A stretch of DNA of 64,000 nt from an uncultured Gemmatimonadaceae bacterium (GTDB lineage Bacteria > Gemmatimonadota > Gemmatimonadetes > Gemmatimonadales > Gemmatimonadaceae): contig CAWAGQ010000005.1 of assembly GCA_963781585.1 (NCBI GenBank), positions 64,001 through 128,000 on the forward strand, read 5' to 3'. The translations under genes were made by a program, and so were the position numbers. Shown here piece by piece: positions 379-55,886 of the stretch. Each line of letters begins with the position of its first letter. Position 1 is the stretch's first letter. The notes under the pieces are model-generated. The model saw only the letters and a list, made by a program, of their open reading frames with translations, was not told the DNA's origin and searched no databases.

Positions 379-506
379 ACCTAACGTGGTGCTGCTGCCG
401 GCGGCGTGGGGTAGAGAGGCCGTACGGCGCTCGCCTCAGCCACGGGAGTGTACCGATGGCCGCGCTGATCGCGCAGATACACAGCGCTGAAGTGTTCGCG
501 TTGGGC
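379..506 (+). mobile_element. degenerate attC-like site
   Basis: ACCTAAC (RYYYAAC), 5-nt spacer, then GCTGCTGC-CGGCG as a left arm. Ends ...GCTGAAGTGTTCGC-GTTGGGC (GTTRRRY). The arms pair poorly. Confidence 0.45.
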
Positions 507-807
507 GACGCGACGCGCCCTGCTTAAGAGGGGAAAGGCCACCGCGTAGCCGGTCCCGGCACTCGTGCTGTCAAGGTGCATAGTCTGTATAGCAATGCAC
601 CAGTCATCCGAACTGATCGGTACCAGCCGTGATGAAGCGTTGCGGCGTGAAGGCCGAGACGAGGATCACGGCACCGAAAATACCACGCCGCCACGATGCA
701 CAGCCGCCGGAAGATCACGCGCGCGCGCGCGCGACGCCCGCGAAGGGCGCCGATCGTGGCGACGATCAGAGTGCCGACGCCCGCGAGAAAGTGGATGAGG
801 AGCCGCT

Positions 808-899
808 GCAGAACGTGCGGGCAGCGTGCGCGCTCGGCTTCGCCAGCGCGCACGCATCCCATGACAGCCCGCCGCAGCATGGCAACGCGATATGCCGCA
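808..899 (+). mobile_element. degenerate attC-like site upstream of the toxin-antitoxin pair
   Basis: Perfect 11-bp hairpin GCGTGCGCGCT (824-834)/AGCGCGCACGC (845-855) around a CGGCTTCGCC loop. Right arm CGCCGCAGCA..., ending GATATGCCGCA (889-899), one mismatch from GTTATGC. Confidence 0.5.
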
Positions 900-965
900 A
901 CCGCCGGCACTTGCGCTCGTACGGATCGGTTGTAGTATTCGTACGTACACGATTCGGAGTGCGGA

Positions 966-1193
966 ATGACGACCACGAAGCGCACTACTTCGCGCCGGCC
1001 CGCTGGCCGCCGAGGGAAGGTGCGGAAGGAGTTCTGGCTCGACCCGAAGGCGCTGCGTCGCGCCCAGACCGTGCTTGGCACGGCGACCGAACGCGAAACG
1101 GTTGAGCGGGCGCTGGACATGGTTGCGTTCCGCGCCGAGGTCCAGGAAGGCGTTGCCGCGCTCGCGGGATTGGAGCTCGACCCGCGCGCGTAA
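966..1193 (+). CDS. vapB: VapB-like antitoxin
   Basis: 75 aa with LDPKALRRAQTVLGTATERETVERAL, a ribbon-helix-helix-type pattern. GGAG RBS. Lies directly before a PIN-domain gene. Confidence 0.75.
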   Translation: MTTTKRTTSRRPAGRRGKVRKEFWLDPKALRRAQTVLGTATERETVERALDMVAFRAEVQEGVAALAGLELDPRA

Positions 1194-1194
1194 C

Positions 1195-1644
1195 GTGCGC
1201 AGGTACGCGCTGGACTCGAGCTGCTATATCGACGCGAGCCGCGACGCGGCGGCGTTAGCCGCGTTGCAGAGGTTTGTGGCGCGTGCGGCGCCGGGCCTCT
1301 ACGTCAGCAGCGTGGTGGCGGCCGAACTACGGGGTGGGGCGCGCTCGGCGCGCGATCGCAAGGCGCTTGAGGAGAAGGTGCTTGGGCCGTTTGCGCGCCG
1401 CGACCGGATGCTCACCCCGAGCGCGGCGGCGTGGGATGCGTTGGGCCGCACCCTGACCACACTCCGAGAGCGCGAGGGGCTCCGGCTCGCGCAGGTGCCA
1501 CGCAGTTTCGCGTTCGACGTGTTGCTCGCCTACTCGTGCCGCGAGCATGGCGTTGTGCTCGTGACGGCCAACGCCCGCGATATGGCGCGCATCCGGCGCG
1601 TATTCGCCTTTGAGTACGTGGCGCCGTATCCCGAGGCCGCGTGA
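1195..1644 (+). CDS. vapC: PIN-domain toxin (VapC family)
   Basis: GTG start 1 nt after the antitoxin stop. PIN acidic motifs YALDSSCYID, SSVVAAEL, FDVLLA, LVTANARD. Confidence 0.85.
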   Translation: MRRYALDSSCYIDASRDAAALAALQRFVARAAPGLYVSSVVAAELRGGARSARDRKALEEKVLGPFARRDRMLTPSAAAWDALGRTLTTLREREGLRLAQVPRSFAFDVLLAYSCREHGVVLVTANARDMARIRRVFAFEYVAPYPEAA

Positions 1645-1653
1645 GGCCCAAGG

Positions 1654-1685
1654 TGCGGCATAACCAGCAATTGCGGTCGTTAGAC
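1654..1685 (+). mobile_element. internally deleted attC-like site
   Basis: TGCG-GCATAAC-CAGCA-ATTGC-GGTC-GTTAGAC. Both core-like boxes are present but span only 28 bp, starting 10 nt after the toxin stop. Confidence 0.55.
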
Positions 1686-1687
1686 CG

Positions 1688-1935
1688 CAGAATGAGCTCG
1701 CGGACGCTCTCGATGCTACGCCGGCTCTCGCCGGTGCGGAATTGATCATCGGTCTGCCCGAGCATCAGGTGAGCTTCGAGGGCGGAGGCCACGCATCACA
1801 GAATGACCTGTAGGCGCTTCTACGCCGTGGCAGCGAATTCCTCTCGATGGCCGTCGAAGCCAAAGCTGGAGAGAAACTCGATGATCTGGTGAAGGACTGG
1901 CTCCCGAAGGATGGTGAGCGCAGCCGGTTGCCCAC
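1688..1935 (+). pseudogene. DUF6946-like protein fragment with an internal stop
   Basis: Frame reads ELADALDATPALAGAELIIGLPEHQVSFEGGGHASQNDL*ALLRRGSEFLSMAVEAKAGEKLDDLVKDWL. TAG at 1811; no start codon; truncated. Family assigned from recalled motifs (PEHxV...ASQNDL...AVEAK). Confidence 0.6.
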
Positions 1936-4414: not shown

Positions 4415-5776
4415 ATGCCGCGTCCAGGTCTGGTCGTCATTCTCGCGTGCTGTGTCATCGCTGCCGGATGCCGTTCGATCGCAGACGCATTGGGCGCACC
4501 GCACATCGTCTCGGTCACCATCACTGCGCCGCCTGGGCTCCTCGTTGGTGATACGGCGACCGCGGTAGCAGTTGCCGTGGCTGACGACGGCAGAGAACGC
4601 CCCGGGTGGCCGAGGCACTGGAGCAGTAGCGATCCAGCCGCGCTCTCCGTTGACGCAAACGGCAAGATGGTTGCGCTGGTCGGTGGCCGCACGGTGACCA
4701 TCACGTGCGAGGTAGACGGCAAGAAGGGAACGGCAACCGTCGGGGTCTCGGGCGACGATAGCCGATTCGGATATGCGTTCGCCGACCAACCGACCGCCGC
4801 TGGTCCGTATGCGCCACCCGCCGGGACGAGCTTCACCTCGGGCGGCGGGACGATCGAGGTAACGCGGGCATCTGCCGGCGTCTATTCCGTGCGGTTCGCA
4901 GGACTGGGCCGGCAGCCCGGGCAGCGCGACAACGTCCAGGTGTCCGCCTACAGCAGCGTGCCAGTGTATTGCGACGTCGGCGTCTGGAGCACCAGCGGCG
5001 CAGATCTCGTGGTTCCTGTGCTCTGCTTCGAGGGCAAGCCGTCGACGAGCGGCGGGACTCCCACGGATAGCCGCTTCACGGTCATGGCGCTCGGCGCCTG
5101 GGCGTTCGGAAAAACCGCGCCGCTCGGCTTTCTCGCGTATCAACCTGACACTGTGCCGGTCTGGCTGGACACCTCCGCGATGGCTCGCAACTCATCCGGT
5201 GGGCACGTCGCCGCGGGACGTGACTCCGAAGGGAATTTCGGCGTGCAGTTCCAGGGTCTCGAGTCCGCGTGGCTGGCCGCACCCGCGGCAATTCACACCA
5301 CCGGTATCGGGGGCGGTGCGAGGCGTTGTCGATCTTCGGCGTACGACAAGGCCAGCGCGAGTCTCCACGTTGTCTGTGCCGGACAAGGCGGTAACCCTCG
5401 TGACTCGCCGTGGTCGCTGCTGTGGCTGCAGCACGGAAGACCGACGATGCGCTTCGGTTTCGCCTGGGCCACGAGCCAAACGTCGCTGGTCGATTATACT
5501 CCCTTTGCGGATTTTCTCATCAACTCGTCAGGCGGGTCGGTCAAGGCACGCAAGACGGCACTTGGCCAGTACCACGTGGTCTTCGCGGGCCTCGGCCGGC
5601 CCGCCGGGGCAACCGAGACTGTCCTCGTGTCGCCGCTCTTCACGCCTAACGATGGGATGTGCGACATCCTTTCGTGGGGGAACACTGGTGCGAGCGATCT
5701 GTTCGTCGACGTCGCCTGTTACGACCCCACAGCCGCCGCGGTCGACTCGCGGTTTGGCGTGATGGTGATTCAATAG
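4415..5776 (+). CDS. putative lipoprotein with an Ig-like domain and three ~105-aa Cys-containing repeats
   Basis: Lipobox-like IAAGC, Ig-like WSSSDPAALSVDANG, repeated YxVxFxGL...C...DSxF units. Extended -10 TGCTATGAT at 4371-4379. Confidence 0.75.
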   Translation: MPRPGLVVILACCVIAAGCRSIADALGAPHIVSVTITAPPGLLVGDTATAVAVAVADDGRERPGWPRHWSSSDPAALSVDANGKMVALVGGRTVTITCEVDGKKGTATVGVSGDDSRFGYAFADQPTAAGPYAPPAGTSFTSGGGTIEVTRASAGVYSVRFAGLGRQPGQRDNVQVSAYSSVPVYCDVGVWSTSGADLVVPVLCFEGKPSTSGGTPTDSRFTVMALGAWAFGKTAPLGFLAYQPDTVPVWLDTSAMARNSSGGHVAAGRDSEGNFGVQFQGLESAWLAAPAAIHTTGIGGGARRCRSSAYDKASASLHVVCAGQGGNPRDSPWSLLWLQHGRPTMRFGFAWATSQTSLVDYTPFADFLINSSGGSVKARKTALGQYHVVFAGLGRPAGATETVLVSPLFTPNDGMCDILSWGNTGASDLFVDVACYDPTAAAVDSRFGVMVIQ

Positions 5777-8568: not shown

Positions 8569-9425
8569 ATGCGCGCACGCCACGTGAGCCTGACATCGTC
8601 AGGTATGCTTGCTGTCGCCTTGCTGCACTCGGGGTGTACCCCGGAGCGGCCGGATCACCCGGTGGAATACCGCTCCCCGGCCGGGGTCCAATACCTGGCC
8701 CTGTCGGACACCGGAGCCGTGGCGCACGCGGACTCCGCCCTGGCCGCCGACCCGCGCAACGTCGAGAAGATCCTGCAGCTCGGCCTCGCGCAGGCCGGCA
8801 TTCGCCGTACCGCGAGGCGATCGTGACCTTCACCCGCGCGATTGCGATCGCGCCCGACAGCGGAATCCTCTACCGCTGGCGCGGCCACCGCTACCTGTCG
8901 GTGCGGCAGCTGGACAGCGCGCGGGCCGACCTCGAGCACGGGCTCGCCCTCGATTCCACGCTGTACGGCTGCTGGTATCACCTGGGCGTGGTCAAGTACG
9001 TGACCGGGGACTTCGGCGGCGCAGCCGATGCCTTCGCGCGCGCCCTGCCGCTGGCGCCTAACGCCGAAGAGCACGCCGGATCGATCGACTGGGGCTGGAT
9101 GTCGCTGTCGCGGGCCGGGCACTCAGCCGATGCGCAGGCGTGGCTCGACCGCAACAGCGATTCGATCCCGGCGGTGAATGCCTACACCCGGCGACTGCAG
9201 TTGTATCGCGGCCAGATTCCGCCCGACCAGCTGATCACGCCCGCCGACACGCAGGACATCCAGGTGGCGACGTTGAAGTACGGACTGGGCAACTGGTACC
9301 TGGTGCGCGGCGACACGGCGCAGGCTCGTGCCGCCTTCCAGGCTTCGGTTGCGTCGGGTGGCTGGCCGGCGTTCGGGTTCATCGCCTCAGAGGCGGAGTT
9401 GCGCCGCCTGGGGGCTGCCAGGTAG
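8569..9425 (+). CDS. TPR-repeat lipoprotein; frameshift near 8808
   Basis: LHSGC lipobox-like segment, then TPR helices (YREAIVTFTRAIAIAP, WYHLGVVKYVTGDFGGAADAF) in the shifted frame. Confidence 0.8.
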
Positions 9426-23724: not shown

Positions 23725-23825
23725 GCTGTGGCCGGTCAGAGGTGTTCATCGAGCGGGCACCTGAGTGCCCACGGGCAACGGCAAGGCCGGCGCGTTGACT
23801 ACCCCCGCTGGGGTGCCCGGCGCCC

Positions 23826-36035: not shown

Positions 36036-37548
36036 TTGCCTCTTCGCGCCTCCCTGCACCAGAACCCGCTCGACATCACGCCGGATGAGTTCCGGCGATT
36101 GGGCCACGCAGTCGTCGACGACCTCGCGGACTTCCTCGACGCCCTGCCGCACCGTCAGGTGACCTCCGGCGCATTCCCGGCGGCCGTCCGCGCCGCACTC
36201 GGCGGTGACGGACTCCCCGAGCATGGGGCCGATCCGGGCGATCTGCTCCGCGAGGCCACACGGCTGCTGGTGAGGGACTCCCTCTTCAACGGACATCCGC
36301 GGTTCCTGGGCTTCATCACCTCATCGGCGTCACCCACTCGGCGCCCTGGCCGACCTGCTCGCCGCCGCGATCAATCCGAACGTTGGCGGCTATGTCCTTT
36401 CCCCCGTGGCTACCGAAATCGAAGCCCAGGCGATACGGTGGATCGCCGAGTTGTTAGGCTATCCCGCATCGTGCGGCGGCCTGTTCGTGAGCGGCGGCAA
36501 CATGGCGAACTTCGTAGCCTTCCTCGCCGCGCGGCGCGCGAAGGCGCCGTGGGACGTTCGCGCGCTGGGGCTCCGTGGTGGCGAGCGCCAGCTCATCGCC
36601 TACGCCTCGAAGGAAACGCATACCTGGTTCCAGAAGGCGGCCGACCTCTTCGGACTCGGCCTCGAAGCCATCCGCTGGATTGCCGTGGACGACCAGCAGC
36701 GCATGGATGTCTCCGAACTCGAGCGTCAGGTCGCGGCCGATCGTCAGGCGGGCACGTTCCCGTTTCTGGTGGTGGGCACCGCCGGCACGGTGAGCACCGG
36801 CGCCGTCGATCCGCTGCGCGAGATCGCCTCCGTCTGCCGGACACACGACCTCTGGTTTCACGTCGACGGCGCATACGGGGCGCCGGCGGCGGCGCTGTCC
36901 GAGGCGCCCGACGATCTCAAGGCGCTGTCGCTGGCGGACTCGGTGGCGGTCGATCCTCACAAGTGGCTCTACGCGCCGATCGAAGCAGGGTGCACGCTGG
37001 TGCGCGACCCGCAGCATCTCATGGATGCGTTCAGTTTTCATCCCGAGTACTACCACTTCGCCGATATGGAGGGCGAGCAGCCGCGCAACTATCACGAGTA
37101 CGGGCCACAGAATTCGCGCGGATTCCGCGCGCTCAAAGTGTGGCTGGGGTTGCGCCAGGCGGGTCGGGCCGGACACACGCGGCTCGTTCGCGAAGACATC
37201 GCCCTGGCACGGCAGCTGTTCGACGAGGTCCGGAAGACGCCCGAGCTCGAGGCGCTCACCCACAACCTCAGCATCACCACATTCCGCTACGTGCCTCCGG
37301 ATGGTGCGGCGTCAGGTTCTGAATCTCGGGAATACCTCAACGAACTGAACGCGGCGATTCTCGAGCGGCTGCAGGCCGAGGGGGAGGTGTTCGTCTCGAA
37401 TGCGCTGATCGACGGGGCGTTCGTGCTGCGCGCGTGCGTGGTGAACTTCCGGACGACGCGGAGCGACATCGAAGCCATCCCGGGCATCGTAGTGCGCGTG
37501 GGACGCGAGGTCGCGGCCAGCCTGAGTGCGCATAGGCCAGCGGACTGA
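36036..37548 (+). CDS. PLP-dependent group II (aromatic amino acid-type) decarboxylase; frameshift near 36338
   Basis: EFRRLGHAVVD, HPRFLGFI, SGGNMAN, GTVSTGAVDPL, HVDGAYG, DPHKWLY. Confidence 0.92.
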
Positions 37549-40934: not shown

Positions 40935-41030
40935 GTCTCAGGCCACAGGCCAAAAACCAGACAGCGTCCATCGAGCGGGCCGCGGGGCGGCGGATGACCG
41001 ACGCCCTCAGACTGGCGAGTCGGTGTTGTG

Positions 41031-43151: not shown

Positions 43152-46100
43152 CCCGGTTGGGCACTTTCGCCCACTGGTCGGTCGTGAGGATCGCCTGCGC
43201 CTGCTTCAGGGCGTCCTGCTGATTCTTCTGGAGCTTGTCCAGCTGGGGCCGGAGCTTCGGCATCAGCGCCGCCATATCCGGGTTCGCCCCGGCGTTCGCC
43301 ACCTGCTTCTGCACGTCCTGACCAAGCACGGTGTTCTTCGCATTCAGTGAGTCCGCGATCACCTGCAGCTTCGCGACCTGATCATCGCTGAGCTTGAGGG
43401 TGTCCTTCATCTGAATGATGGAATTTACCGGATTCACGTTCGCCAGCGCCGTCGCGAATCCAGCGGGACCTCCGCCTCCGGGACCGCCACCGCCACCACG
43501 CCCGCCACGGCCGCCGAACGCCGCGCCGCGAACGGCGTCGATCGCGTCACGGACGCGGTCGGGGCCGAGCGTGTAGCGTGCGTTGATGCCCACCTGGAAC
43601 GGGATCTGGATGCCGTTCTGCCCCTGCCGCGACGAACCGAAGCGCTCGTTGACCTGATAGATGTAGCTCTGCGACGACGGATCGAAGCCACGCACGTAGA
43701 GCAGCGTGTTGTCCTCGCCGCGGAACGAGCCCCAGCCATGCAGGCTGTTCTTGCCGTGGAGGAGCTGGTCCATGCCGCCCAGGAAATTCTGGGTCACCAC
43801 CGACACCATCAGGCGACGGTTCAGTCCAAGCACCGCCGGGCGCCAGTTGAGCTGGAACTCCAGGCTGGTCTGCCACGGTCCGCGGCACGAGTTGCGCTCG
43901 GCGATGGTGCCGAGGTTCCTGCTCAGGCACTCCCGCACCCCCGGCGACGTGCCGGCGAGCAGGCGCTCCATGCCGCTGGCGACCGCGGTATCGCCGACGC
44001 TGGACGGGTTGAACAGGAACGCCCGGTCGTTTCGTGCGCCGTCACCGTTGATGTCCGCACTCACCATCGGTGTGAACGGCGATCCCGACGACAGCCGTCC
44101 CACGGCAGTCACTTCCATGCCGAGGTTGATCGGATAGGTGATCGATCCGGTGATCGAGTGGCGGCGATCGAAGTTGCTCACGGCCCACTCGTGCACATTG
44201 GGGTCGCCGGCGGTGGTGGCCGACGAGAAGCCTCCGCCGCCCGAGGAGAAGCCGCCACCGGTGTTGCGCCCGAAGCCTCCGCCGCCGAATCCGCCGCCCG
44301 AGGACTGGTCACGCGAAAAGCCGAGCGTGTAACCCAGGTTGAAGATCGCGCCCCGGGTGGTGATGCCGTTCAGCGAAAGCGACAGCTGCTTCGATTCCGA
44401 TCCGAGGTTGGAACTCGTCAGCAGCACCTGACTGAAGTTCGGATTGAGTCGCGAGGCGAGGAGGTTGGTGGTGCCGCTGGTGGGCACGATCGAGGCCGGG
44501 TCGGCATACACCGGCCGCCCGTCCTCCGCCGCCAGATTGAACTGCGGGGTCTCGCGCAGATTGAGGTCGCGATATCCGGTCTGGGCCACCCCGCGCGAGT
44601 AGCTGAGGTCGGCGCTGAACGAATAGCGCTCGAAGAACCGGCGCTGGGCACCTAACGAGGCGCGCCATGCGCGGGGCGCCTGGAAGTTCTTGTCGAACAG
44701 CGTGACGTTGGGCACGCCGGTGGGAGAGTAGAGGTTCCCGCCGCCGACGCACTCGGTGGGAATGCTCGACGGGTCGAGCTCGAACGCCGACCAGTCCGGT
44801 TGCGGGACGTAGGCGCCGGTGCACACCAGCTGCGCTTCCGAATTGGCGAGGCCGGTTGCCGCCGCCGCCGCCGAAAACAGGTTGGAGCTCACCGTGCTGC
44901 GGAATTCACCGATTCCACCGCGCAGGATGAGCGGATTGCTCCCGCCACCGCGACCGCCGAATCCGCCACCGAATCCGCCCCCGCCGCGACCACCAAATCC
45001 GCCGCCGCCGCGACCGCCGAAGCCGCCCCCACCACCCGCCCCTCCACGACCGCCACCGTCCGCGCCACCCGGGCCGCCACCCGACGAACCGAGCGTCATC
45101 GTGAATCCCACCCGCGGACTGACGTGCACCTCCTTCGGCAGGAAGTCGGTGCGGTGTCCGAACGCCTGCTCCACCGCCGGATTCTCCCTGGGCGCATTGC
45201 CGAAACGTCCCCCCTCCAACCGGCCGCCGTAGGTGACCTGCAGAGACCGCGAGACCCGCCAGACATCTCCGAGATAGAGCCCCGCATTGATCTGCGACCC
45301 CTGTCGCACGTTAGGCTGCAGCGTCCGGGTGAAGCTCGTCGCCTGGCCGGCGTCGAAGTCCGCCAGCGAGTTGAACATGTAGGTCCCGAACCGGTTCGAC
45401 GTCACGTCCTGCTTGAACGTCTGCTGGTTGAGCAGCCCGCCCAGCTTGAACCGGTGTCCCGGCGTGAGCCAGGAGACTTCGTCGGTGGCCTCGAATCCGG
45501 TGCTGCGTCCGTTCTGCGGCAGGCCGGTGTTCCCGCCGAAGGTGAGGGTGGACACCGCGCGCGTGGCGTCGCTGGTCAGGTCGGAGGCGACCTGGACGCG
45601 GCCGGCCGGCAACGTGAGGAACGCTCCCTGGTTCCGCTGGCTGCCGGAGTAGTACGCCTTCAGCTCGTTGATGTACTTGCCGGCGAAGATTGACGTATAC
45701 GTGGCCATCATCCCGGCACCCCGGTTCTTCGACGTCCCGCCTGTCTGCGGCAGAGACAGCGTCCCCACCCGCGCCGGATCCTGGTCACTCCAGTTCCAGT
45801 CCCATCGCAGCGACAACGAATGCCCATTGGGCATCAGCCAATCCGAGCGGACCAGTCCGGAGAGGTTATTCGACGTGCGGTTGGGATCGAAATACGACCC
45901 CGCCTTCATGCCATTCTGCGCCGCGATGCTGAAGAAGCGCGCTACCGAATCGGAGCTCACCCCGAAGCGCGACAGCGTGGTGGCATCGGCATTGTACAGG
46001 GACGGAAGAATGTCCTGGCGCTGGCGAAGCTGGAGCGACCCGAACGCGAACAGGTTGTCCTGCACGATGGCCCGGCCGAACCCGCCGGACAGCTGGTTCT

Positions 46101-46950
46101 GCGTGTAGCCCTGTGACAGCGGCGACACATCCTCGCCGCTGATCACGAGCTGATCGTCGCGGAGCTGGTAGGAGAAGTTCCCCTGGGGCCGATTGGTGCC
46201 CGACCGCGTCGTCGACGCGATCAGACCGCCCGAAAACTGCCCGCGGGTGACATCGTAGGTGCTGGTGATCACCCGGGTGCTGCGGGTGGCCTCGGACGGC
46301 ACCTCGGTGGTGCCGAAGCTCACGCCATCCAGCGTGATGGCGTTCGCCTCGGGGCGCTGCCCGGCCACCGAGAACCCCGCCGCTGTGGTGTCGGACCCGG
46401 TGATCGCCACCACGTTAGGCGACAGGAGCGCCAGGTTCAGCAGGTCACTGGCATCCACCGGGAGCCGGGCCGCCTGGTCGGGCGTAAACGCCCGCTCGAT
46501 CGACCCCGGCGTGGGGAGATCACCACCGCGCGGGAGTGGCTGCCGTGCCTGGACATTGACGCCCTGCAGCGTGGTCGCGTTCATCGACAGCACCGCGTCG
46601 GCCACCAGCCGGTCCTCGTCGGCGATCCGCGTGAGCCGCTGGGCGTTTGGCGCGAGACCGATCTGGCGGATCACCACCTGGTAGTCGCCGCCACCGTCCG
46701 GGAACAGGATCGTGTATCGGCCCTGCGCGTTCGTGCGAGCGCGCCGCGTCACGCTGGTCTCGAGCGACGTGACCTCGACGGTCGCGCCCTCGATCGGGGC
46801 GCCGTTCTCCGCCTTGACGGTCCCGGTGATGATGTCGGTGGTGACGCCGATCTGCGCGCGCGCCACGGCGGGTGCAGTGAGAAACAGCGCGAACACGAAT
46901 GCAATGCGGTGCCAGCGTCGAGCGCCAGGCGCCAGGGCACGAAGTGGCAC
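43114..46950 (-). CDS. TonB-dependent receptor (Oar-like) with an N-terminal carboxypeptidase-regulatory domain and a helical C-terminal extension
   Basis: Signal peptide ARA-Q, ITGTVKAENGAPIEGATV, plug NAITLDG...YDVTRGQFSGG, DINGDGARND. Confidence 0.88.
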   Translation of the reverse strand: MPLRALAPGARRWHRIAFVFALFLTAPAVARAQIGVTTDIITGTVKAENGAPIEGATVEVTSLETSVTRRARTNAQGRYTILFPDGGGDYQVVIRQIGLAPNAQRLTRIADEDRLVADAVLSMNATTLQGVNVQARQPLPRGGDLPTPGSIERAFTPDQAARLPVDASDLLNLALLSPNVVAITGSDTTAAGFSVAGQRPEANAITLDGVSFGTTEVPSEATRSTRVITSTYDVTRGQFSGGLIASTTRSGTNRPQGNFSYQLRDDQLVISGEDVSPLSQGYTQNQLSGGFGRAIVQDNLFAFGSLQLRQRQDILPSLYNADATTLSRFGVSSDSVARFFSIAAQNGMKAGSYFDPNRTSNNLSGLVRSDWLMPNGHSLSLRWDWNWSDQDPARVGTLSLPQTGGTSKNRGAGMMATYTSIFAGKYINELKAYYSGSQRNQGAFLTLPAGRVQVASDLTSDATRAVSTLTFGGNTGLPQNGRSTGFEATDEVSWLTPGHRFKLGGLLNQQTFKQDVTSNRFGTYMFNSLADFDAGQATSFTRTLQPNVRQGSQINAGLYLGDVWRVSRSLQVTYGGRLEGGRFGNAPRENPAVEQAFGHRTDFLPKEVHVSPRVGFTMTLGSSGGGPGGADGGGRGGAGGGGGFGGRGGGGFGGRGGGGFGGGFGGRGGGSNPLILRGGIGEFRSTVSSNLFSAAAAATGLANSEAQLVCTGAYVPQPDWSAFELDPSSIPTECVGGGNLYSPTGVPNVTLFDKNFQAPRAWRASLGAQRRFFERYSFSADLSYSRGVAQTGYRDLNLRETPQFNLAAEDGRPVYADPASIVPTSGTTNLLASRLNPNFSQVLLTSSNLGSESKQLSLSLNGITTRGAIFNLGYTLGFSRDQSSGGGFGGGGFGRNTGGGFSSGGGGFSSATTAGDPNVHEWAVSNFDRRHSITGSITYPINLGMEVTAVGRLSSGSPFTPMVSADINGDGARNDRAFLFNPSSVGDTAVASGMERLLAGTSPGVRECLSRNLGTIAERNSCRGPWQTSLEFQLNWRPAVLGLNRRLMVSVVTQNFLGGMDQLLHGKNSLHGWGSFRGEDNTLLYVRGFDPSSQSYIYQVNERFGSSRQGQNGIQIPFQVGINARYTLGPDRVRDAIDAVRGAAFGGRGGRGGGGGPGGGGPAGFATALANVNPVNSIIQMKDTLKLSDDQVAKLQVIADSLNAKNTVLGQDVQKQVANAGANPDMAALMPKLRPQLDKLQKNQQDALKQAQAILTTDQWAKVPNRVKNGRGFGAGPG

Positions 46951-48589: not shown

Positions 48590-48591
48590 AG

Positions 48592-48650: not shown

Positions 48651-50740
48651 TCTCCGCTCCCCACCGCCACCCGCAACCCCACCCACACCGTCCGGCCGGG
48701 CCCCGGCTCGAAGAACCGCCCGTTCGACGCGTTCGACACCACGTTCGCGGCATACGTCCGGTCGAAGACGTTGTCGACGCCGATCACGGGCTGTGCCCCG
48801 AGTCTCCGCACATCGAGCATGACCCTGGTGTTGACGAGGGTGTAGGCGGCGGCGTAGTTGGCATTCGCATCGTCGGCCGGCTGCCGCGCGGCGTGCTGCA
48901 GCTCCACGGCGACCAGGCCCCACGCCGGCCGCGCGTTGGCATACGCGGTCCAGGTGGACGGCGCCACGCCCGGCACGTGGTTGTCGCGGTAGCTGGTGCC
49001 GCTGACGACGAAGTCTTCGTACGTATAGCGGAGCCAGCCTCCCGACACGCCTAACGAAAAGATGCCGCGGGCGGCGGCAAGACCGATCTCGGCGCCGCGG
49101 CGTGCGGTGCGCCCGGCGTTCCGATAGTAGCGGCGTCCGCTGCCATCGGGGACTTCGAACGGGATCAGTTCGTCGGTCGTGGTAACGCGATACAGCGCTA
49201 CATCATAGCTCAGCTGGCCGTGCCAGATGCCCTTGGCGCCCGCCTCGATGGTGCGTCCGTGCTGCGGCTTGAGCGTGCGATTGAGCCCACCGCTCCCGTC
49301 CGGTTGATTAGCCAGCTCGGTGGTCGTCGGCGTCTCGAACGACGAGGAGACATTCACGTAGACCGACGCCAGCCCCGCGACCCGCCAGTTGATCCCCGCC
49401 ATCGGCGTCACGTCGCTCAGCGTGCGCGACTGCTCGCCCGGCACACCGGTGGGGCGGTGGTCCAGTACGCCAAAGCGGGTCCGATCGCCCCGTACGGTCG
49501 CGGTGAGCGATAGCCGTTCGGTCGGGTCCACTTCGGCGCGGGCATAGGCTCCCAGCCCCAGGACCCGCTCGCGCTGATCCACCGTGATGCTGCCCTGATC
49601 GGACGTACCGGGGCAGGTGGCCGGCCGGGTCCCGGTGAGGCCGGCGCAGTTTGCGAAATTCTGCCGGTCGTCGTCCTGACTGAGCACGTCGATGCCTGCG
49701 GCAAGGCGTACCGGATGCCCGGCGGCGGTGAGATTATACTGACCGCGAGCCGCTCCGCCTAACGTCTTCCGGTCGAACGACACGATCGCGAAACTCTGGG
49801 GATTGTCGAGCGACCGCAGGCCGCCGTGCAGGTTGACGTTGAGGGAGCCGCGATCGCCGTCGTGAGACGCCTGGAGCGCCAGGATCGATTGCGTGACCGT
49901 CTTGCTCGCTCTCTTCCTCACGTTGGTGGGATCGGCGAGCGTGCGGTCGGAGGCCATCTCCGCCGCGGTGAGCGATCCCGGATTCTGCGCCAGCGGCGAA
50001 TCGAACCAGGTGACCTGGGCCAGGGACCGCGTGCCGCCGGCAGTCCATCGGGCGTCGGCGTTGGCGCTGGTATTCCGGAAGCGGGAATACGTGCGCGGCC
50101 CCTGGCCCTCGTTTCTCGTGGAGGTCGCCTGCATGCCCACCGCACCGGCGTGGCCACCCGCATACACCGACGCCCGTTTCACGCCGTCGGCGTAGAACGC
50201 GCGGACGCGCGCCTCGCCTCCGGAGTCGGGGGGCGGTGCGGTGCGGAAGTCCACCACGCCGCCTGACGAGTTGCCGTAGAGGGCACCGGCGCTGCCGCGA
50301 ATGACCTCGGCGGCGCCCACCGTCTCGAGGTCGAGATAGTCGACCGCGGTCTGACCGTCGGCGAGCGTGAGCGGGATGCCGTCGCGCAGGATGCGCACTC
50401 CGCGGATCCCGAACGCCGAGCGGGCGCCGAAGCCGCGGATGGCGAGCCGGGGATCCTGGGTGGGGTTGAACCGGTTGGCGACACTCACCCCGGGAACGAA
50501 CGCCAGCATTTCGGTGAGCGCGGCCCGCCTGGTCCCGGCGCGCGACGAGTCGATCGTCAGGCGCGTGAGGGCGAACGGCAGGTCGAACGTGGACCGGGCC
50601 GCGTCGCGGGTGACGGTGACGCGCACCGGCGTGATCCGGACGGCGGCGGAGTCCTGGCACTCCACCGGCGGTGCGTGCAGGACCAGCAGGAGCGAGACGA
50701 CCACGCCGGCAGCGCGGACTCGCGCGAATATGTCAGGCAC
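48641..50740 (-). CDS. TonB-dependent receptor (YncD-like)
   Basis: RLAIRGFGARSAFGIRGVRILRDGIPLTLADGQ, EVIRGSAGALYGN, FETPTTTEL, RFFEPGPGRT. Confidence 0.92.
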   Translation of the reverse strand: MPDIFARVRAAGVVVSLLLVLHAPPVECQDSAAVRITPVRVTVTRDAARSTFDLPFALTRLTIDSSRAGTRRAALTEMLAFVPGVSVANRFNPTQDPRLAIRGFGARSAFGIRGVRILRDGIPLTLADGQTAVDYLDLETVGAAEVIRGSAGALYGNSSGGVVDFRTAPPPDSGGEARVRAFYADGVKRASVYAGGHAGAVGMQATSTRNEGQGPRTYSRFRNTSANADARWTAGGTRSLAQVTWFDSPLAQNPGSLTAAEMASDRTLADPTNVRKRASKTVTQSILALQASHDGDRGSLNVNLHGGLRSLDNPQSFAIVSFDRKTLGGAARGQYNLTAAGHPVRLAAGIDVLSQDDDRQNFANCAGLTGTRPATCPGTSDQGSITVDQRERVLGLGAYARAEVDPTERLSLTATVRGDRTRFGVLDHRPTGVPGEQSRTLSDVTPMAGINWRVAGLASVYVNVSSSFETPTTTELANQPDGSGGLNRTLKPQHGRTIEAGAKGIWHGQLSYDVALYRVTTTDELIPFEVPDGSGRRYYRNAGRTARRGAEIGLAAARGIFSLGVSGGWLRYTYEDFVVSGTSYRDNHVPGVAPSTWTAYANARPAWGLVAVELQHAARQPADDANANYAAAYTLVNTRVMLDVRRLGAQPVIGVDNVFDRTYAANVVSNASNGRFFEPGPGRTVWVGLRVAVGSGERP

Positions 50741-53341: not shown

Positions 53342-53423
53342 CGAATGTCTCTGCGACGGCGGCCCGGCGCTCTCGCCGAATCGTGTGTGTGTGTTACCAT
53401 TTCTCCGGGGCGACGAGCACACC

Positions 53424-53530
53424 GTGAGCGACCTGTCATCGACATTACGCGACGCACTCTCCGGCCGCTATACGATCGACCGGGAGAGTGGACGTCGGGG
53501 GAGGGCGAACGTCTCGCAGGCGATCATGGC
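53424..53530 (+). pseudogene. decayed N-terminus of a Ser/Thr protein kinase
   Basis: VSDLSSTLRDALSGRYTIDRESGRRGRANVSQA resembles ...ALxxRYxIERELGRGGMATVYLA, then the similarity stops. Confidence 0.55.
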
Positions 53531-53608
53531 GCGGCGGTTGCCCTCACCCGCGCCACCGGTGCGCGGGCGTCGCAGCGGTTCCGGCGTCCTGGTGAGCTGG
53601 TCGCAGGC

Positions 53609-54301
53609 ATGCGCACCACCGCGCTGATCATCGACGATGAAGCGCAGATCCGGCGCGTGGTGGCGAACGCGCTGCGGGATCTCGTGTCGCGCACCCTGGA
53701 AGCCTCCGCCGGGCGGCTGGCGATCGACCTGGCGGCGTCCGAACGTCCGGACCTCATCGTTCTGGATCTCGCGCTCCCCGACATGCCTGGGCGCGATGTC
53801 TGTCTGGAGATCCGCAAGTGGTCCACCGCACCCATCATCGTCCTGTCGGCACGCGATTCGGATCAGGAGAAGATTGCTCTGCTCGATGCCGGGGCCGATG
53901 ACTACGTGACCAAGCCGTTTTCCGCCGCCGAGCTGCGGGCCCGCGCGGGGGCGCAGCTCCGCCGTGCGCGGCTGGCCGCAGTCGCGGGCCCGGAGCAGGT
54001 GTTGCGCGTCGGCGCCCTCGAGATCGATCTGGCAAAGCCTGCCGTGCGGCGAGGGAGCGGCGCGGTGCATCTCACCCGGACGGAGTGGGATATCCTCCGG
54101 GCCCTGGTGCGTCACGCGGGCCGTACCCTGACGCACCAGCAGATCATTCGGGCAGTCTGGGGGAACGCGTTCGGGGACATGCAGCAGACGCTCCGCGTGC
54201 ATATCCGGGGGTTGCGACGGAAGCTCGAGATGGATCCCGTTCGGCCGTCACTCATCGTGACCGAGCCGGGCGTGGGGTATCGATTCGAGACCGGACCATG
54301 A
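53609..54301 (+). CDS. kdpE: response regulator KdpE
   Basis: IIDDEAQIRR, DLIVLDLALPD, LLDAGADDYVTKPF, IVTEPGVGYRF. Next to the kdp genes. Confidence 0.9.
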   Translation: MRTTALIIDDEAQIRRVVANALRDLVSRTLEASAGRLAIDLAASERPDLIVLDLALPDMPGRDVCLEIRKWSTAPIIVLSARDSDQEKIALLDAGADDYVTKPFSAAELRARAGAQLRRARLAAVAGPEQVLRVGALEIDLAKPAVRRGSGAVHLTRTEWDILRALVRHAGRTLTHQQIIRAVWGNAFGDMQQTLRVHIRGLRRKLEMDPVRPSLIVTEPGVGYRFETGP

Positions 54302-55886
54302 ACCGGACGTCCGAGCGCGGACCCGTGCCCGGCGGGTGGCACTGGGTGCTGTGGCTGGGTGGGCTGGGGGTTCTCACCGCCACGCTGGTGCCGGTGCGCT
54401 CCCGGCTCAACGAGGCGCACATCGCGCTCGCGTTCCTGCTCCTGGTGCAATTCGCGAGTGCCCGTGGCGGCCGGGCGCTCGGGTTCACGGTGGCAGTTGC
54501 GGCGTTCTTCTGCTTCGACTTCTTCCTCCTTCCGCCCTACTACACGCTCCATCTCGACAATCCGGTAGACTGGCTGGTGCTGGCGGCGTTCCTGGTGACC
54601 GCGCTGGTGTCGGCGCAGCTCCTGTATCGAGCGCAGGCCGAAGCGGAGAACGCACGGCAGCGCGCGCACGAAGTCGACCGCCTGGCGTCGTTAGGCGCCG
54701 AGACCCTCAGCGCCGGGCGCGCCGATGCGGCGCTGGCCTCGATCGCCGGTATCATTCGCGCTACCCTGCAATTCGACGCGTGCATCGTTTACACCGTCGA
54801 TGCCGCGGTCGGCCAGCCGGCGGTGGCCGCCCAGGCGGGCATCCCCGGCTCGCCCCCGCCCCACGAGACCGCCCGCGAGGCGCGGTCCCTGGCGACCTGG
54901 GTGGCGGAGCACGGACAGGCGGCGGCACAGCGACTGGACCGGACCTCCACCCTCGGGGTCGCCCCGCGGGACGGCCGGCCGGGATCGCGGACCTGGCGCA
55001 GGTTCGCCTGCTCCTTCGCCCATTACGGGTCCGCGACCGCGTGGTCGGCGTGCTGGCCGTTCTCCGCGAAGGTGGTCTGGCGCTCTCGCCCGAGCAATTG
55101 CGCGTGCTCGACGCGCTCGACTACTACGCCGCGCTGGCGGTGGAGCGGGTGCGCCTGGTGGCCGAGGCCGAGCGCGCCGAGGTCCTGAAGGAAGCCGATC
55201 GCGCCAAGGATGCCCTGCTGGCGTCCGTGTCGCACGACCTGCGCACTCCGCTCACGACCATCAAGGGACTGGCGCACGAACTGGCGGAGGGCGGTGACGA
55301 CCGGGCGGTGGTGATCGAGGAGGAAGCCGACCGACTGGGCCGCCTGGTGGGCGACCTCCTCGATCTCTCCGCGATCAGCAGCGGAACGGTGCGACTCGAT
55401 CTGCAGCCTAACGAAGCGGAGGATCTCCTCGGCGCGGCCGCGCAACGTGCGGCCGGTGTACTTGGCGATCACGAGCTGCGGATCTCGGTGGCCGGCGGGG
55501 AGCAGCTCCTGTTCGGTCGCTTCGACTTCGCCCAGACGCTGCGCGCGCTGGTGAACCTCATCGAGAACGCCGCGAAGTACTCGCCGCCCGGCATGCCGAT
55601 CGCCCTCACGGCGGGGCGTGAGGGCGCGTGGCTGCGCTTCGACGTCGCCGACCGCGGTCCGGGCGTTGATTCCGCCGAACGCGAGCGCGTGTTCGAGGCG
55701 TTCTATCGCCGATCCGTCGGGGACCCCGCGCCACCGGGGTCCGGGCTCGGCCTCTCGATCGCCCGCAGCCTCATCGCGGCACAGGGCGGATCCATCACCT
55801 ATGGCGACCGCGACGGCGGCGGCAGCGTGTTCTCCATTCGCCTCCCCGCGCTCGACATCACCGAGACTTCCGCGCTCCCGGGATAA
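54298..55886 (+). CDS. kdpD: KdpD-type sensor kinase, membrane/GAF/kinase part only; frameshift near 54985
   Basis: DUF4118 helices (FFCFDFFLLPPYYTL), ALLASVSHDLRTPL, NLIENAAKYS, GSGLGLSI. No N-terminal KdpD/Usp domains. Confidence 0.85.

What the first reader, a model, noticed from the sequence alone, without database searches (positions are those of the whole stretch)
379..55412. Dispersed, orientation-neutral CGTTAGGC motif written into coding sequence with rare synonymous codons
Seen in sequence: 17 exact CGTTAGGC/GCCTAACG copies (heptamer starts 5644, 9056, 18787, 21309, 23720, 26683, 26959, 31582, 35117, 40670, 41579, 45310, 46414, 49049, 49757, 54690, 55406) and 5 variants (379, 36453, 38906, 40930, 44650). 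The exact copies split 9:8 between strands. A base-composition estimate at about 69% GC gives roughly 2 expected. By my count these sites are 22 of about 29 TTAG/CTAA tetramers in the window. Inside genes the motif reads as TTA-GGY (Leu-Gly), CCT-AAC (Pro-Asn) or a TAG stop, so disfavoured codons create it without changing the protein. Established: Neisseria/Pasteurellaceae uptake sequences and cyanobacterial HIP1 behave this way, whereas Chi and KOPS are strand-polarised. Inference: a lineage-specific DNA signal (uptake sequence, nucleoid-protein or methylation/repair site) that I do not know to be characterised.
Basis: partly seen in the sequence, partly recalled or inferred. Interest (0 to 1): 0.85.

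Follow-up and report, generated by a model that had tools for sequence, protein, structure and literature searches.

The report
Hyper-abundant DNA word CGTTAGGC
This soil bacterium writes the eight-letter DNA word CGTTAGGC into its genes about every 4,000 bases with its rarest codons, as do many relatives and some unrelated soil Verrucomicrobia, so it looks like a DNA-level tag of the kind Neisseria and Haemophilus use to recognise their own DNA, though its reader is unknown.

Summary
CGTTAGGC occurs 17 times in the window (0.97 expected) and 1,442 times in the 5.7-Mb genome. It is the most over-represented 8-mer (about 30-fold) and holds 47% of all TTAG tetramers. It lies on both strands, on all 17 contigs, at equal density in genes and spacers. 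Its orientation follows gene strand, not replication. In genes it is mostly xCG-TTA-GGC or CCT-AAC. A synonymous-codon shuffle gives 45 copies against 1,119 observed.

Copies are conserved between two species of the genus (89% against 42% for flanking 8-mers). They avoid each other below about 300 bp. They are rare in genes of atypical composition. CGTCAGGC is a weaker second form.

About 31 of 77 genera of the family carry the word (250 to 7,800 copies). So do one genus of a sister family and, as TCGTTAGGC, some Chthoniobacterales (Verrucomicrobiota); earlier notes of this scan had reported the latter.

No methyltransferase, Vsr, integron integrase, ComP-like pilin, ComEC or ComEA tracks the carriers. 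The best reading is an uptake-sequence-like self tag (about 0.4), with an intracellular binding site as the main rival. My paper searches found no description of it.

The parts
5644..5651 (-). exact copy; antisense in gene 4667-5776(+), read ACG-CCT-AAC-GAT (Pro-Asn)
9056..9063 (-). exact copy; antisense in gene 8823-9425(+), read GCG-CCT-AAC-GCC
18787..18794 (-). exact copy; sense in gene 17560-20193(-), read GCG-TTA-GGC (Ala-Leu-Gly)
21308..21315 (+). exact copy; sense in gene 20740-23724(+), read GCG-TTA-GGC
23719..23726 (+). exact copy; supplies the TAG stop codon (23722-23724) of gene 20740-23724(+)
26683..26690 (-). exact copy; sense in gene 25897-27141(-), read CCG-TTA-GGC
26958..26965 (+). 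exact copy; antisense in gene 25897-27141(-), read AAG-CCT-AAC-GCG
31582..31589 (-). exact copy; sense in gene 30100-32766(-), read GCG-TTA-GGC
35117..35124 (-). exact copy; antisense in gene 34296-35366(+), read CAG-CCT-AAC-GTG
40669..40676 (+). exact copy; sense in gene 38520-40934(+), read GCG-TTA-GGC
41578..41585 (+). exact copy; sense in gene 41277-43151(+), read ACG-TTA-GGC
45309..45316 (+). exact copy; antisense in gene 43114-46896(-), read CAG-CCT-AAC-GTG
46413..46420 (+). exact copy; antisense in gene 43114-46896(-), read TCG-CCT-AAC-GTG
49049..49056 (-). exact copy; sense in gene 48641-50704(-), read TCG-TTA-GGC
49757..49764 (-). exact copy; sense in gene 48641-50704(-), read ACG-TTA-GGC
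54689..54696 (+). exact copy; between my gene calls 53609-54301 and 55041-55886, but inside the longer ORF 54336-55886 listed mechanically
55406..55413 (-). exact copy; antisense in gene 55041-55886(+), read CAG-CCT-AAC-GAA
379..386 (-). variant CGTTAGGT (position 8 C>T, an enriched form); intergenic
36452..36459 (+). variant TGTTAGGC (position 1 C>T, an enriched form); TTG-TTA-GGC in gene 36406-37548(+)
38905..38912 (+). variant TGTTAGGC; TTG-TTA-GGC in gene 38520-40934(+)
40929..40936 (+). two-mismatch variant AGTTAGGT; supplies the TAG stop of gene 38520-40934(+)
44650..44657 (-). variant CGTTAGGT; TCG-TTA-GGT in gene 43114-46896(-)
1253..1260 (+). one-mismatch variant CGTTAGCC (not an enriched form); GCG-TTA-GCC in gene 1195-1644(+)
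1678..1685 (+). one-mismatch variant CGTTAGAC (not an enriched form); intergenic

Best explanation
CGTTAGGC is a genome-wide tag read on double-stranded or incoming DNA by an unidentified sequence-specific protein. The core is GTTAGG, the edges prefer C, and CGTCAGGC and CGTTAGGT are weaker accepted forms. It is not a codon, peptide or RNA signal. The most likely way it works is as an uptake or recombination 'self' tag of the USS/DUS kind. In that model, DNA fragments carrying the word are taken up or recombined preferentially through a type IV pilus/ComEA/ComEC route. Alleles with the word then replace alleles without it (molecular drive, possibly helped by weak selection). Copies pile up wherever the protein sequence tolerates them, even at the cost of the rarest codons. 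Shown here: the over-representation, its DNA-level nature, site conservation, mutual avoidance of copies, depletion in genes of atypical composition, its distribution across clades, and the presence of competence genes. Inferred: that a protein reads it, that reading occurs during uptake or recombination, and that drive rather than selection on each site maintains it.
For: (1) DNA-level signal. There are 1,442 copies (724 on +, 718 on -). It ranks first among 8-mers under Markov orders 2 to 4, at 28 to 32 times expectation for orders 2 and 3. The codon-shuffle null gives 45 copies against 1,119. Density is the same in spacers: 223 of 1,442 copies lie in the 16% of the genome that is non-coding, and the word is 16-fold enriched in spacers alone. 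All 17 contigs carry it at 0.19 to 0.34 per kb.
(2) No replication polarity. With the gene on +, the word is on + in 69% of cases where GC skew is positive and 73% where it is negative. In spacers the figures are 45% and 43%.
(3) Frame bias with partial saturation, as in USS/DUS (passages of PMC2817400). 757 copies read xCG-TTA-GGC and 269 read CCT-AAC. The word encodes 15.7% of all [APST]LG and 24% of PN[VADEG] tripeptides. In dense carriers PN[VADEG] is 2 to 3 times its reverse.
(4) Maintenance. 64 of 72 orthologous sites are identical between G001 and G000, against a mean of 42% (maximum 57%) for flanking 8-mers. Few sites are shared between genera (0 to 3 of 3 to 10 aligned sites; 7 of 16 with the densest carrier). 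This implies continuing gain and turnover.
(5) Diminishing returns in cis. Gaps under 100 bp: 8 observed against 36 expected. Under 300 bp: 29 against 106. Under 1,000 bp: 211 against 322. Five control words show no deficit. The same holds in G009 (2 against 20 under 100 bp). The word also avoids its weaker forms (129 against 213, and 10 against 27, under 300 bp). Passages of PMC7811141 call an even distribution an expected result of uptake-driven drive.
(6) Native DNA is favoured. Density rises from 0.044 to 0.406 per kb from the lowest to the highest GC3 class of genes. TTA takes 16% rising to 48% of Leu in NCG-Leu-GGC, while elsewhere it falls from 1.0% to 0.3%. Three of the 8 largest deserts have low GC (0.62).
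(7) Copy number grades from 250 to 7,800 per genome among carriers, with a 'dialect' in another phylum (T before the core in 87% of copies).
(8) Uptake hardware is encoded: ComEC, two secretins, and a comEA-like/pilB/pilT/pilC operon. Every carrier genus sampled has ComEC. Genera g23 and g49, which lack both ComEC and the ComEA-type domain in every genome listed, are non-carriers, as is g68, which lacks ComEC throughout.
Against: There is no functional test, and I know of no report of natural transformation in these lineages. One search found 0 papers holding both 'Gemmatimonad' and 'uptake sequence'. The competence genes do not discriminate: ComEC is in 184 of 201 genomes and the HHH_3 domain in 178 of 201, including most non-carriers. 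The non-carrier G115 has the same comEA-pilB-pilT locus as its three carrier congeners. No ComP_DUS-type pilin passes its cut-off in any carrier. Unlike USS/DUS, the word is not enriched in spacers and does not form inverted terminator pairs. Avoidance is stronger within a gene (11 against 76 under 300 bp) than across genes (18 against 28), so part of it may reflect translation cost. G001 segments without a G000 counterpart are not poorer in the word (0.178 against 0.200 per kb; 9 of 79 copies). No unusually similar DNA was seen between G000 and 235 kb of verrucomicrobial carriers (at most 69% nucleotide and 63% protein identity). Every statistical feature above would also arise from an intracellular binding site under weak selection in a very large population.
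Confidence: 0.4

Rival explanations
1. The word is an intracellular binding site for a nucleoid-associated or chromosome-organising protein. Weak selection on each site keeps it in very large soil populations. Copies space out because a second site near an existing one adds little.
For: It accounts for the orientation neutrality, equal density in genes and spacers, site conservation, mutual avoidance and graded copy number. Equal density in genes and spacers fits this reading better than the uptake model. HIP1 was read this way in the abstract of PMC5861425.
Against: No candidate protein was found. An exact, asymmetric 8-mer that is patchy among genera and shared with a distant phylum is unusual for nucleoid proteins, which as far as I recall mostly bind degenerate sites. 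I did not test for long-range periodicity.
Confidence: 0.25
2. This is a HIP1-like, methylation-linked motif. An orphan methyltransferase marks the word, and methyl-dependent repair or transformation favours it.
For: HIP1 is an 8-mer with comparable enrichment and conservation. It is now linked to methylation-dependent transformation (abstract and Discussion of PMC13756078; search listing only for bioRxiv 10.1101/2024.09.10.611283). The central A, and the C of the weaker CGTCAGGC form, could be methylated.
Against: G000 shows only two DNA methyltransferases. One is an HTH-Dcm-Vsr fusion beside an EcoRII-type nuclease; it was not found in carriers G001, G005 or G009 but was found in non-carriers G002 (Vsr part) and G007. 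The other is a TaqI/Eco57I-like enzyme with clear homologues in 13 of 201 family genomes, in carriers and non-carriers alike. There were no PF01555 or PF02086 matches in G000. The word is not palindromic. Vsr-type repair drives T to C (recalled), which is the wrong direction for the T form.
Confidence: 0.1
3. The word is a recombination or repair signal, or a defence 'self' marker, read inside the cell. Examples would be a Chi-like site for an end-processing nuclease, or a marker that spares own DNA.
For: A density of 1 per 4 kb resembles E. coli Chi (recalled). Depletion in atypical DNA fits a self marker. Full-length AddAB-like genes were found in 14 of 201 family genomes, 13 of them non-carriers, so carriers may process DNA ends differently.
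Against: There is no strand polarity with respect to replication. Enrichment of 16 to 50 times far exceeds that of known Chi sites (recalled). RecC was not found in G000, G009, G003 or G115, yet it is present in the verrucomicrobial carrier G366. Most non-carriers also lack the AddAB-like pair, and that search scored only 3 candidates per genome.
Confidence: 0.1
4. The word is tied to integrons or another tyrosine recombinase. It equals C plus GTTAGGC, the core recombination site of integron attC/attI (GTTRRRY, recalled), so dispersed copies could be recombinase-binding or secondary integration sites.
For: Integron integrase passes its cut-off in 13 of 21 relatives, including G000. Cassette-array-like, same-strand series ending in CGTTAGGC occur in this phylum and others. 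A random 8-mer would match GTTRRRY with a probability of about 0.004 (my estimate).
Against: Integrase does not track carriers. G005 has no match above cut-off and G009 has only fragments, while non-carriers G002, G003, G004, G006, G007 and G011 have intact genes. Dispersed copies lack the conserved upstream arm seen in the arrays. The tolerated variants (positions 1, 4 and 8) do not follow GTTRRRY: A to G at position 5 and G to A at positions 6 and 7 are not enriched, while T to C inside the GTT is.
Confidence: 0.05
5. It is a by-product of translation or composition: codon-pair bias, a peptide motif, or a mutational hotspot without any reader.
For: 69 to 73% of genic copies are in the sense orientation, and 757 lie in a single frame.
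Against: The word is 16-fold enriched in spacers alone and present in all usable frames on both strands. The codon shuffle gives 45 copies against 1,119. The exact 8-mer is conserved far above its flanks. Relatives of the same GC content lack it: 1 copy in 400 kb of G003.
Confidence: 0.02

Closest known systems
USS of Pasteurellaceae (9-bp core AAGTGCGGT or ACAAGCGGT, as printed in PMC2817400)
   Same: A fixed short asymmetric word in hundreds to thousands of copies, on both strands and inside genes. It shows strong reading-frame bias, enrichment of the encodable tripeptides, scarcity in atypical DNA and an even spread. Density differs between genera. (Passages of PMC2817400 and PMC7811141; compare.)
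   Different: There are no flanking AT-rich segments. There is no excess in spacers. It is built from the rarest codons of a 67% GC genome. The same core occurs in two phyla. Uptake preference is untested, and competence is unknown for these lineages.
DUS of Neisseriaceae and its dialects (10-bp GCCGTCTGAA as printed in PMC2817400; ComP receptor recalled)
   Same: Clade-wide word with 'dialects': [G/T]CGTTAGGC[G/A] here, TCGTTAGGC in Verrucomicrobia. Copy number varies widely among genera.
   Different: No ComP_DUS-type pilin passes its cut-off in carriers. There are no inverted-repeat terminator pairs. DUS lies mostly in spacers (34.5% in ORFs per PMC2817400), whereas here 84.5% of copies overlap my gene calls.
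HIP1 (GCGATCGC) of cyanobacteria
   Same: An 8-mer, over-represented 15 to 300 times and conserved within and between ORFs (abstract of PMC5861425). Its function is long unknown, and it is now proposed as an uptake 'watermark' correlated with type IV pilus and ComEA genes (PMC13756078).
   Different: HIP1 is a palindrome recognised by two conserved methyltransferases. This word is asymmetric, and no conserved methyltransferase was found.
Chi and KOPS / architecture-imparting sequences (recalled)
   Same: 8-mers at about 1 per 4 kb, read by DNA-processing machines.
   Different: Those are strand-polarised with replication. This word is not, and it is far more enriched.
Integron attC/attI core site GTTRRRY (recalled)
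   Same: The word contains GTTAGGC. Real cassette-array-like series ending in CGTTAGGC occur in this phylum.
   Different: Dispersed copies have no partner arm and sit in frame inside ordinary genes. They tolerate different variants and do not track integrase.

Membership tests
DNA uptake sequences (USS/DUS class) | One fixed short word is grossly over-represented genome-wide | tested here: met
   1,442 copies, top 8-mer, 28 to 32 times the Markov order 2-3 expectation. Window: 17 against 0.97.
DNA uptake sequences (USS/DUS class) | Both orientations, no replication polarity | tested here: met
   724 on + and 718 on -. Orientation is independent of GC-skew sign once gene strand is fixed.
DNA uptake sequences (USS/DUS class) | Reading-frame bias and enrichment of the encodable tripeptides | tested here: met
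   757, 269, 64 and 29 copies in the four open frames. PN[VADEG] runs at 1.59 against 0.51 per 1,000 aa in G009, and 0.71 against 0.71 in non-carrier G003; the samples are small.
DNA uptake sequences (USS/DUS class) | Scarce in recently acquired or atypical DNA | tested here: inconclusive
   There is a 9-fold gradient with gene GC3, and some deserts have low GC. But G001-only segments are not depleted (9 of 79 copies in 12.7% of tiles).
DNA uptake sequences (USS/DUS class) | More even spacing than random | tested here: met
   Gaps under 300 bp: 29 against 106 expected. Controls are not depleted.
DNA uptake sequences (USS/DUS class) | Denser in spacers than in genes; terminator-like inverted pairs (DUS) | tested here: not met
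   15.5% of copies lie in the 16% of the genome that is non-coding. Inverted pairs under 300 bp: 13 against 52 expected.
DNA uptake sequences (USS/DUS class) | Competent cells prefer DNA carrying the word | not testable with these tools
   This needs uptake or transformation assays in a cultured carrier.
DNA uptake sequences (USS/DUS class) | Uptake machinery is encoded | tested here: met
   ComEC, secretins, comEA-like/pilB/pilT/pilC operon. These are also present in most non-carriers.
DUS of Neisseriaceae | ComP-type minor pilin receptor (Pfam ComP_DUS) | tested here: not met
   Only 1 of 21 genomes passes the cut-off, and it is a non-carrier (G011). G000 scores E = 0.006; G001, G005 and G009 have no match.
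HIP1-type iterated palindromes | Palindromic word | tested here: not met
   The reverse complement is GCCTAACG, so the word is not its own complement.
HIP1-type iterated palindromes | Cognate methyltransferase co-occurs with the word | tested here: not met
   The two methyltransferases of G000 are sporadic and found in non-carriers too. Only five Pfam methyltransferase families were searched, and methylation itself was not measured.
HIP1-type iterated palindromes | Sites conserved between genomes beyond neutral expectation | tested here: met
   88.9% against 42%.
Chi / KOPS polar sequences | Orientation skewed with replication direction | tested here: not met
   Adjacent copies share orientation in 752 of 1,425 cases.
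Integron attC/attI sites | Core GTTRRRY with a partner inverse core and arm, in same-strand arrays beside intI | tested here: not met
   Dispersed copies have unrelated flanks. Only about 4 copies near intI (G000:C7:170-183 kb) look like attC ends. Integrase does not track carriers.
REP/MITE-type repeats | Conserved flanks or palindromic units, intergenic location | tested here: not met
   There is no information outside the 8 bp beyond weak preferences at -1 and +1. 84.5% of copies overlap gene calls.

The most novel reading that the evidence does not exclude
Two unrelated, globally abundant soil phyla share one DNA 'watermark': Gemmatimonadota (about 31 of 77 genera of one family plus one genus of a sister family) and Verrucomicrobiota (some Chthoniobacterales). 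The shared core is CGTTAGGC, which is also the integron core recombination site. This would mean that a single, horizontally spread reader writes the same tag into distant genomes. It could define a cross-phylum gene-exchange community in soil. In both phyla the distribution is patchy, which fits gain and loss of such a reader.
Probability: 0.15. Interest if true: 0.9.

Novelty: new member of a known kind. Interest (0 to 1): 0.7.

Why it matters
Sequence-tagged 'self' DNA is firmly established only for Pasteurellaceae and Neisseriaceae, and has recently been argued for cyanobacterial HIP1. A further case in Gemmatimonadota would show that such tags are more widespread in environmental bacteria, all the more because the core is shared with soil Verrucomicrobia. 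It would also suggest that natural transformation or another genome-wide reading process shapes codon use and even protein sequence in dominant soil lineages. The word takes about half of all synonymous opportunities in the most native genes. Practically, it offers a marker for binning and for spotting foreign DNA in these phyla, and a concrete sequence to add to DNA constructs for genetics in hard-to-transform soil bacteria. The patchy distribution across about 300 genomes in two phyla makes the unknown reader findable by phylogenetic profiling.

Tried and rejected
(1) Replication polarity. In the genome search listings some contigs appeared to carry runs of + copies only. This was a listing artefact: the fetched contigs carry both orientations, for example G156:C1 with 21 on + and 18 on -.
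(2) Dcm-Vsr/EcoRII system as driver: rejected.
(3) TaqI/Eco57I-like methyltransferase beside a MutS paralogue as driver: rejected as sporadic.
(4) ComEC and ComEA-type domain as discriminators: nearly universal.
(5) Within-genus contrast of G115 (66 copies) against three congeners (3,479 to 4,141): secretin, HHH_3 and pilus ATPases are present in all of them.
(6) ComP_DUS: no support.
(7) Integron integrase: no tracking of carriers.
(8) A 333-codon ORF upstream of comEA: its matches contain stop codons and occur in non-carriers, so it is probably the wrong frame.
(9) RecC and AddAB: no consistent pattern.
(10) A different 'dialect' in non-carrier G003: no comparable 8- to 10-mer in 400 kb.
(11) Recent DNA exchange with Verrucomicrobia: none seen in 235 kb.
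(12) Core against accessory DNA in G001: no difference.
(13) Maximal-order Markov ranking did not flag the word, because its sub-words are equally enriched. Orders 2 to 4 did.
(14) Literature. The 8-mer or 9-mer appears only in unrelated primers and constructs among the listed hits. One search found nothing for Gemmatimonad plus 'uptake sequence'. None of the 12 papers listed held the phrase 'DNA uptake sequence'. The Gemmatirosa methylome note (PMC3974934, whole text) lists three m6A motifs, none of them this word; I did not determine whether that strain carries the word. Maughan et al. 2010 was not held and is cited only through PMC7811141.

Full report
**Observation**

The window is G000:C5:64001-128000, part of a 5.72-Mb assembly of 17 contigs at 67% GC. 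One search finds 17 exact CGTTAGGC copies, 8 on + and 9 on -. Dinucleotide-preserving shuffles give 0.97 on average and at most 4. One search confirms 29 TTAG/CTAA tetramers in the window. Two further one-mismatch variants lie at 1253 and 1678.

Genome-wide there are 1,442 copies, 724 on + and 718 on -. TTAG itself is depleted: 3,056 copies against 17,181 expected from base composition. Yet 47% of all TTAG lie in the exact 8-mer. Information is confined to the 8 bp, with only weak preferences next to it: G or T before, G or A after. The word ranks first among all 8-mers under Markov orders 2, 3 and 4, at 32, 28 and 3 times expectation. A maximal-order model misses it because its sub-words are equally enriched.

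**It is a DNA-level signal**

I called 4,433 genes (84% coding) with a codon-likelihood ORF picker of my own. This is approximate: it mis-called ORFs inside a CRISPR array.
- 223 of 1,442 copies (15.5%) lie outside genes, which is the non-coding share of the genome.
- Within genes, 757 copies read xCG-TTA-GGC, 269 read xxG-CCT-AAC-G (antisense), 64 read xGC-CTA-ACG and 29 read C-GTT-AGG-C.
- 70 genes end in the word's TAG and 43 in its complement's TAA.
- Shuffling synonymous codons within each gene gives 19.2 sense and 26.0 antisense copies, against 786 and 333 observed. This null still contains the TTA codons that the word itself supplies.
- TTA is 6.7% of Leu codons before Gly and 0.26% elsewhere.
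- 15.7% of all [APST]LG and 24% of all PN[VADEG] tripeptides are encoded by the word.
- In spacers alone, with the CRISPR region masked, the word is 16-fold enriched.
- Orientation follows the gene strand (69 to 73% sense) and is blind to GC-skew sign. In spacers 45% and 43% of copies are on + for the two skew signs. There is therefore no Chi- or KOPS-like polarity.
- All 17 contigs carry it at 0.19 to 0.34 per kb, and counts in 50-kb bins are Poisson-like (variance/mean 1.09).

**Recognition profile**

Among the 24 single-base variants, only a few exceed their nulls, both in genes and in spacers:
- CGTTAGGT: 13-fold over the codon null and 5.7-fold in spacers.
- TGTTAGGC: 4-fold and 2.5-fold.
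- CGTCAGGC: 2.9-fold and 2.4-fold.

G to A at positions 2, 6 and 7 is not enriched. CGTCAGGC (1,519 copies, 89 of them CRISPR repeats) is enriched in every frame. The enrichment is greatest where the T form would give a stop codon or GTT-AGG. Simple mutational decay would favour all transitions, so this pattern points to a reader with a GTTAGG core and relaxed edges.

**Dynamics**

*Conservation.* G001 is a congener with about 89% nucleotide identity in flanks. In G000, 64 of 72 orthologous sites keep the exact word (88.9%), against a mean of 42% and a maximum of 57% for 8-mers at 286 flanking offsets.

*Turnover between genera.* With carriers from other genera (58 to 65% protein identity), few G000 sites are shared: G156 0 of 10, G114 0 of 6, G189 0 of 8, G005 0 of 3, G056 1 of 10, G171 3 of 10, and G009 7 of 16.

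*Comparison with a non-carrier.* In G003 the counterparts are ordinary codons such as CGCTCGGC and CCCTGGGC. The amino acids are identical at 20 of 54 sites.

*Effect on proteins.* In dense carriers the proteome is shifted: PN[VADEG] runs at 1.59 against 0.51 per 1,000 aa for its reverse in G009, and 0.71 against 0.71 in G003. The samples are small, 16,000 to 31,000 aa.

*Mutual avoidance.* Copies avoid one another. Gaps under 100, 300 and 1,000 bp number 8, 29 and 211, against 36, 106 and 322 expected. Five control words show no deficit.
- The same holds in G009 (2 against 20 under 100 bp).
- It holds between the word and CGTCAGGC (129 against 213 under 300 bp) and CGTTAGGT (10 against 27).
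- It holds for direct and inverted pairs alike.
- It is stronger within a gene (11 against 76) than across genes (18 against 28).

*Link to gene composition.* Density climbs 9-fold with gene GC3. Within the fixed context NCG-Leu-GGC, the TTA share rises from 16% to 48%, while TTA elsewhere falls from 1.0% to 0.3%.

*Deserts.* Three of the eight largest deserts have low GC (0.62). One desert holds the EcoRII-type restriction system.

**Distribution**

*Own family.* In 201 genomes of the family (77 genera), the word outnumbers its reversed control in about 70 genomes of 31 genera. This is my hand count. Carriers have 233 to 7,821 copies. The rest have 1 to about 200 copies, all but two borderline genomes (G065, G106) below their control count. 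Status is consistent within genera, with exceptions: G115 has 66 copies against 3,479 to 4,141 in three congeners, and G024 and G106 also depart. Forward and reverse counts are near-equal everywhere.

*Own phylum.* Across the phylum (162 genomes outside the family, 11 further families), only genus g109 of the sister family exceeds control, in 3 of its 5 genomes.

*Taxonomy.* Earlier notes of this scan call the genome Gemmatimonadota. Consistent with that, G000 proteins are 70 to 85% identical to contigs titled Gemmatimonadaceae or Gemmatimonadota, and at most 63% identical to verrucomicrobial ones.

*Unpublished genomes.* The status of genera g39 and g40 rests on genomes flagged unpublished (G042, G043). 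G008, G141, G250, G277 and G347 add single rows. No conclusion depends on any of them.

*Other phyla.* I scanned one genome per species for two copies 270 to 300 bp apart. Besides Gemmatimonadaceae MAGs, it returned many Chthoniobacterales and Verrucomicrobiae MAGs. In 224 kb of their loci there are 254 dispersed copies on both strands, with unrelated flanks and T before the core in 87%. Five such genomes hold 1,872 to 4,633 copies of TCGTTAGGC, against 57 to 78 of the control. Nine of 101 genomes sampled from that order exceed control. After finding this I saw that earlier notes of this scan (e1-3015718, e1-2962804, e1-3897594) had already reported the 9-mer in soil Verrucomicrobia.

*Integron-like arrays.* The remaining hits are same-strand series with a conserved upstream arm. 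I read these as integron cassette arrays, whose attC ends in GTTAGGC (GTTRRRY is recalled, not tested). A few others are CRISPR-like or tandem repeats.

- *C5 methyltransferase.* The only one in G000 is an HTH-Dcm-Vsr fusion beside an EcoRII-type nuclease. It does not track carriers.
- *TaqI/Eco57I-like methyltransferase.* It lies next to a MutS paralogue and has clear homologues in 13 of 201 genomes, on both sides of the divide.
- *Other methyltransferase families.* There are no N6_N4 or D12 matches in G000.
- *Integron integrase.* It is common in the order (13 of 21 above cut-off), but absent or fragmentary in carriers G005 and G009.
- *ComP_DUS.* No support.
- *Competence genes.* ComEC (184 of 201) and the ComEA-type domain (178 of 201) are near-universal. 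The genera that lack ComEC in every listed genome (g23, g49, g68) are non-carriers, and g23 and g49 lack the ComEA-type domain as well. G000 has a comEA-like/pilB/pilT/pilC operon and two secretins, and so does the non-carrier G115.
- *End-processing nucleases.* RecC and AddAB show no consistent pattern.

**Interpretation**

The statistics match the class formed by USS, DUS and HIP1 (passages of PMC2817400 and PMC7811141; abstract of PMC5861425; abstract and Discussion of PMC13756078).
- For an uptake- or recombination-linked tag: the mutual avoidance of copies, the link to native, high-GC3 genes, the graded copy number and the dialects.
- Against it: the lack of a spacer excess, non-discriminating competence genes, and the absence of any functional evidence.
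- Main rival: an intracellular binding site under weak selection, which fits the same statistics.
- Weakened: methylation-linked, Chi-like and integron-linked readings each failed a specific test.

I put the uptake-like reading at 0.4.

**Novelty**

My searches found no description of this word in Gemmatimonadota or Verrucomicrobiota. The library lacks most subscription journals. I did not open supplements of genome-wide oligonucleotide surveys such as PMC2843746, which I saw as a search listing only; they could bear on this claim.

Noticed in passing
G000:C7:185885-186829 and G000:C7:170123-182762: There is an intact integron integrase (TIGR02249, 434 bits). About four attC-like ends ('...GCAGCTGAAT...CGTTAGGC') lie nearby, interleaved with duplicated 303-codon tyrosine-recombinase ORFs. 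Integron integrases pass their cut-off in 13 of 21 relatives, so chromosomal integrons seem common in this order.
   Followed up: partly
L090, L114, L147 (Gemmatimonadales); L107; L086/L087; L088; L132; L156/L157; L095; also G013:C3, G015:C95, G015:C43: These hold same-strand series of CGTTAGGC at 300 to 650 bp spacing with a conserved upstream arm. They look like integron cassette arrays (15 to 30 or more cassettes) in several phyla. The G013 and G015 clusters were not inspected.
   Followed up: partly
G000:C7:379141-404980: 89 CGTCAGGC copies at 70 to 74 bp spacing indicate one or more CRISPR arrays whose repeat contains the weaker form of the word. A Cas4-like PDDEXK match lies at C7:393933.
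   Followed up: no
genome-wide in G000; also in G001:C25: AGGCCAAA/TTTGGCCT occurs 257 times, 214 of them in spacers, as short tandem runs (AAAGGCCAAAGGNCA...). It is the second most enriched 8-mer family.
   Followed up: partly
window 56224-57680: kdpA is split into three ORFs (151, 177 and 111 codons matching successive parts of the KdpA profile). It is either a broken gene or the result of assembly frameshifts.
   Followed up: no
G000:C7:476337-480000 (L036:8337-11892): One 779-codon ORF fuses an HTH, a Dcm-type C5 methyltransferase and a Vsr mismatch endonuclease. An EcoRII-type nuclease follows. The locus sits in a 24.6-kb desert of the word.
   Followed up: partly
G000:C6:301474-305422 (L077): A TaqI/Eco57I-like N6 methyltransferase (439 aa) lies beside a 441-aa MutS domain III/V paralogue and three large proteins of no known family. 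This may be a defence island. Clear homologues of the methyltransferase occur in 13 of 201 family genomes.
   Followed up: partly
window 11865-48589: Six MacB/FtsX-type permease genes are present, several of them paired with PadR-family regulators.
   Followed up: no
L057-L076 (G003:C4:500001-900000): The non-carrier G003 has a moderately enriched 10- to 11-mer, CTGYCCGACTG: about 38 copies in 400 kb against about 1 expected.
   Followed up: no
family survey: Full-length AddAB-like pairs were found in only 14 of 201 family genomes, 13 of them non-carriers of the word. The search scored only 3 candidates per genome, so absences are uncertain.
   Followed up: partly
G000 gene calls: Stop codon usage is TGA 2,758, TAG 1,337 and TAA 338. 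70 TAG stops and 43 TAA stops are supplied by the word.
   Followed up: no
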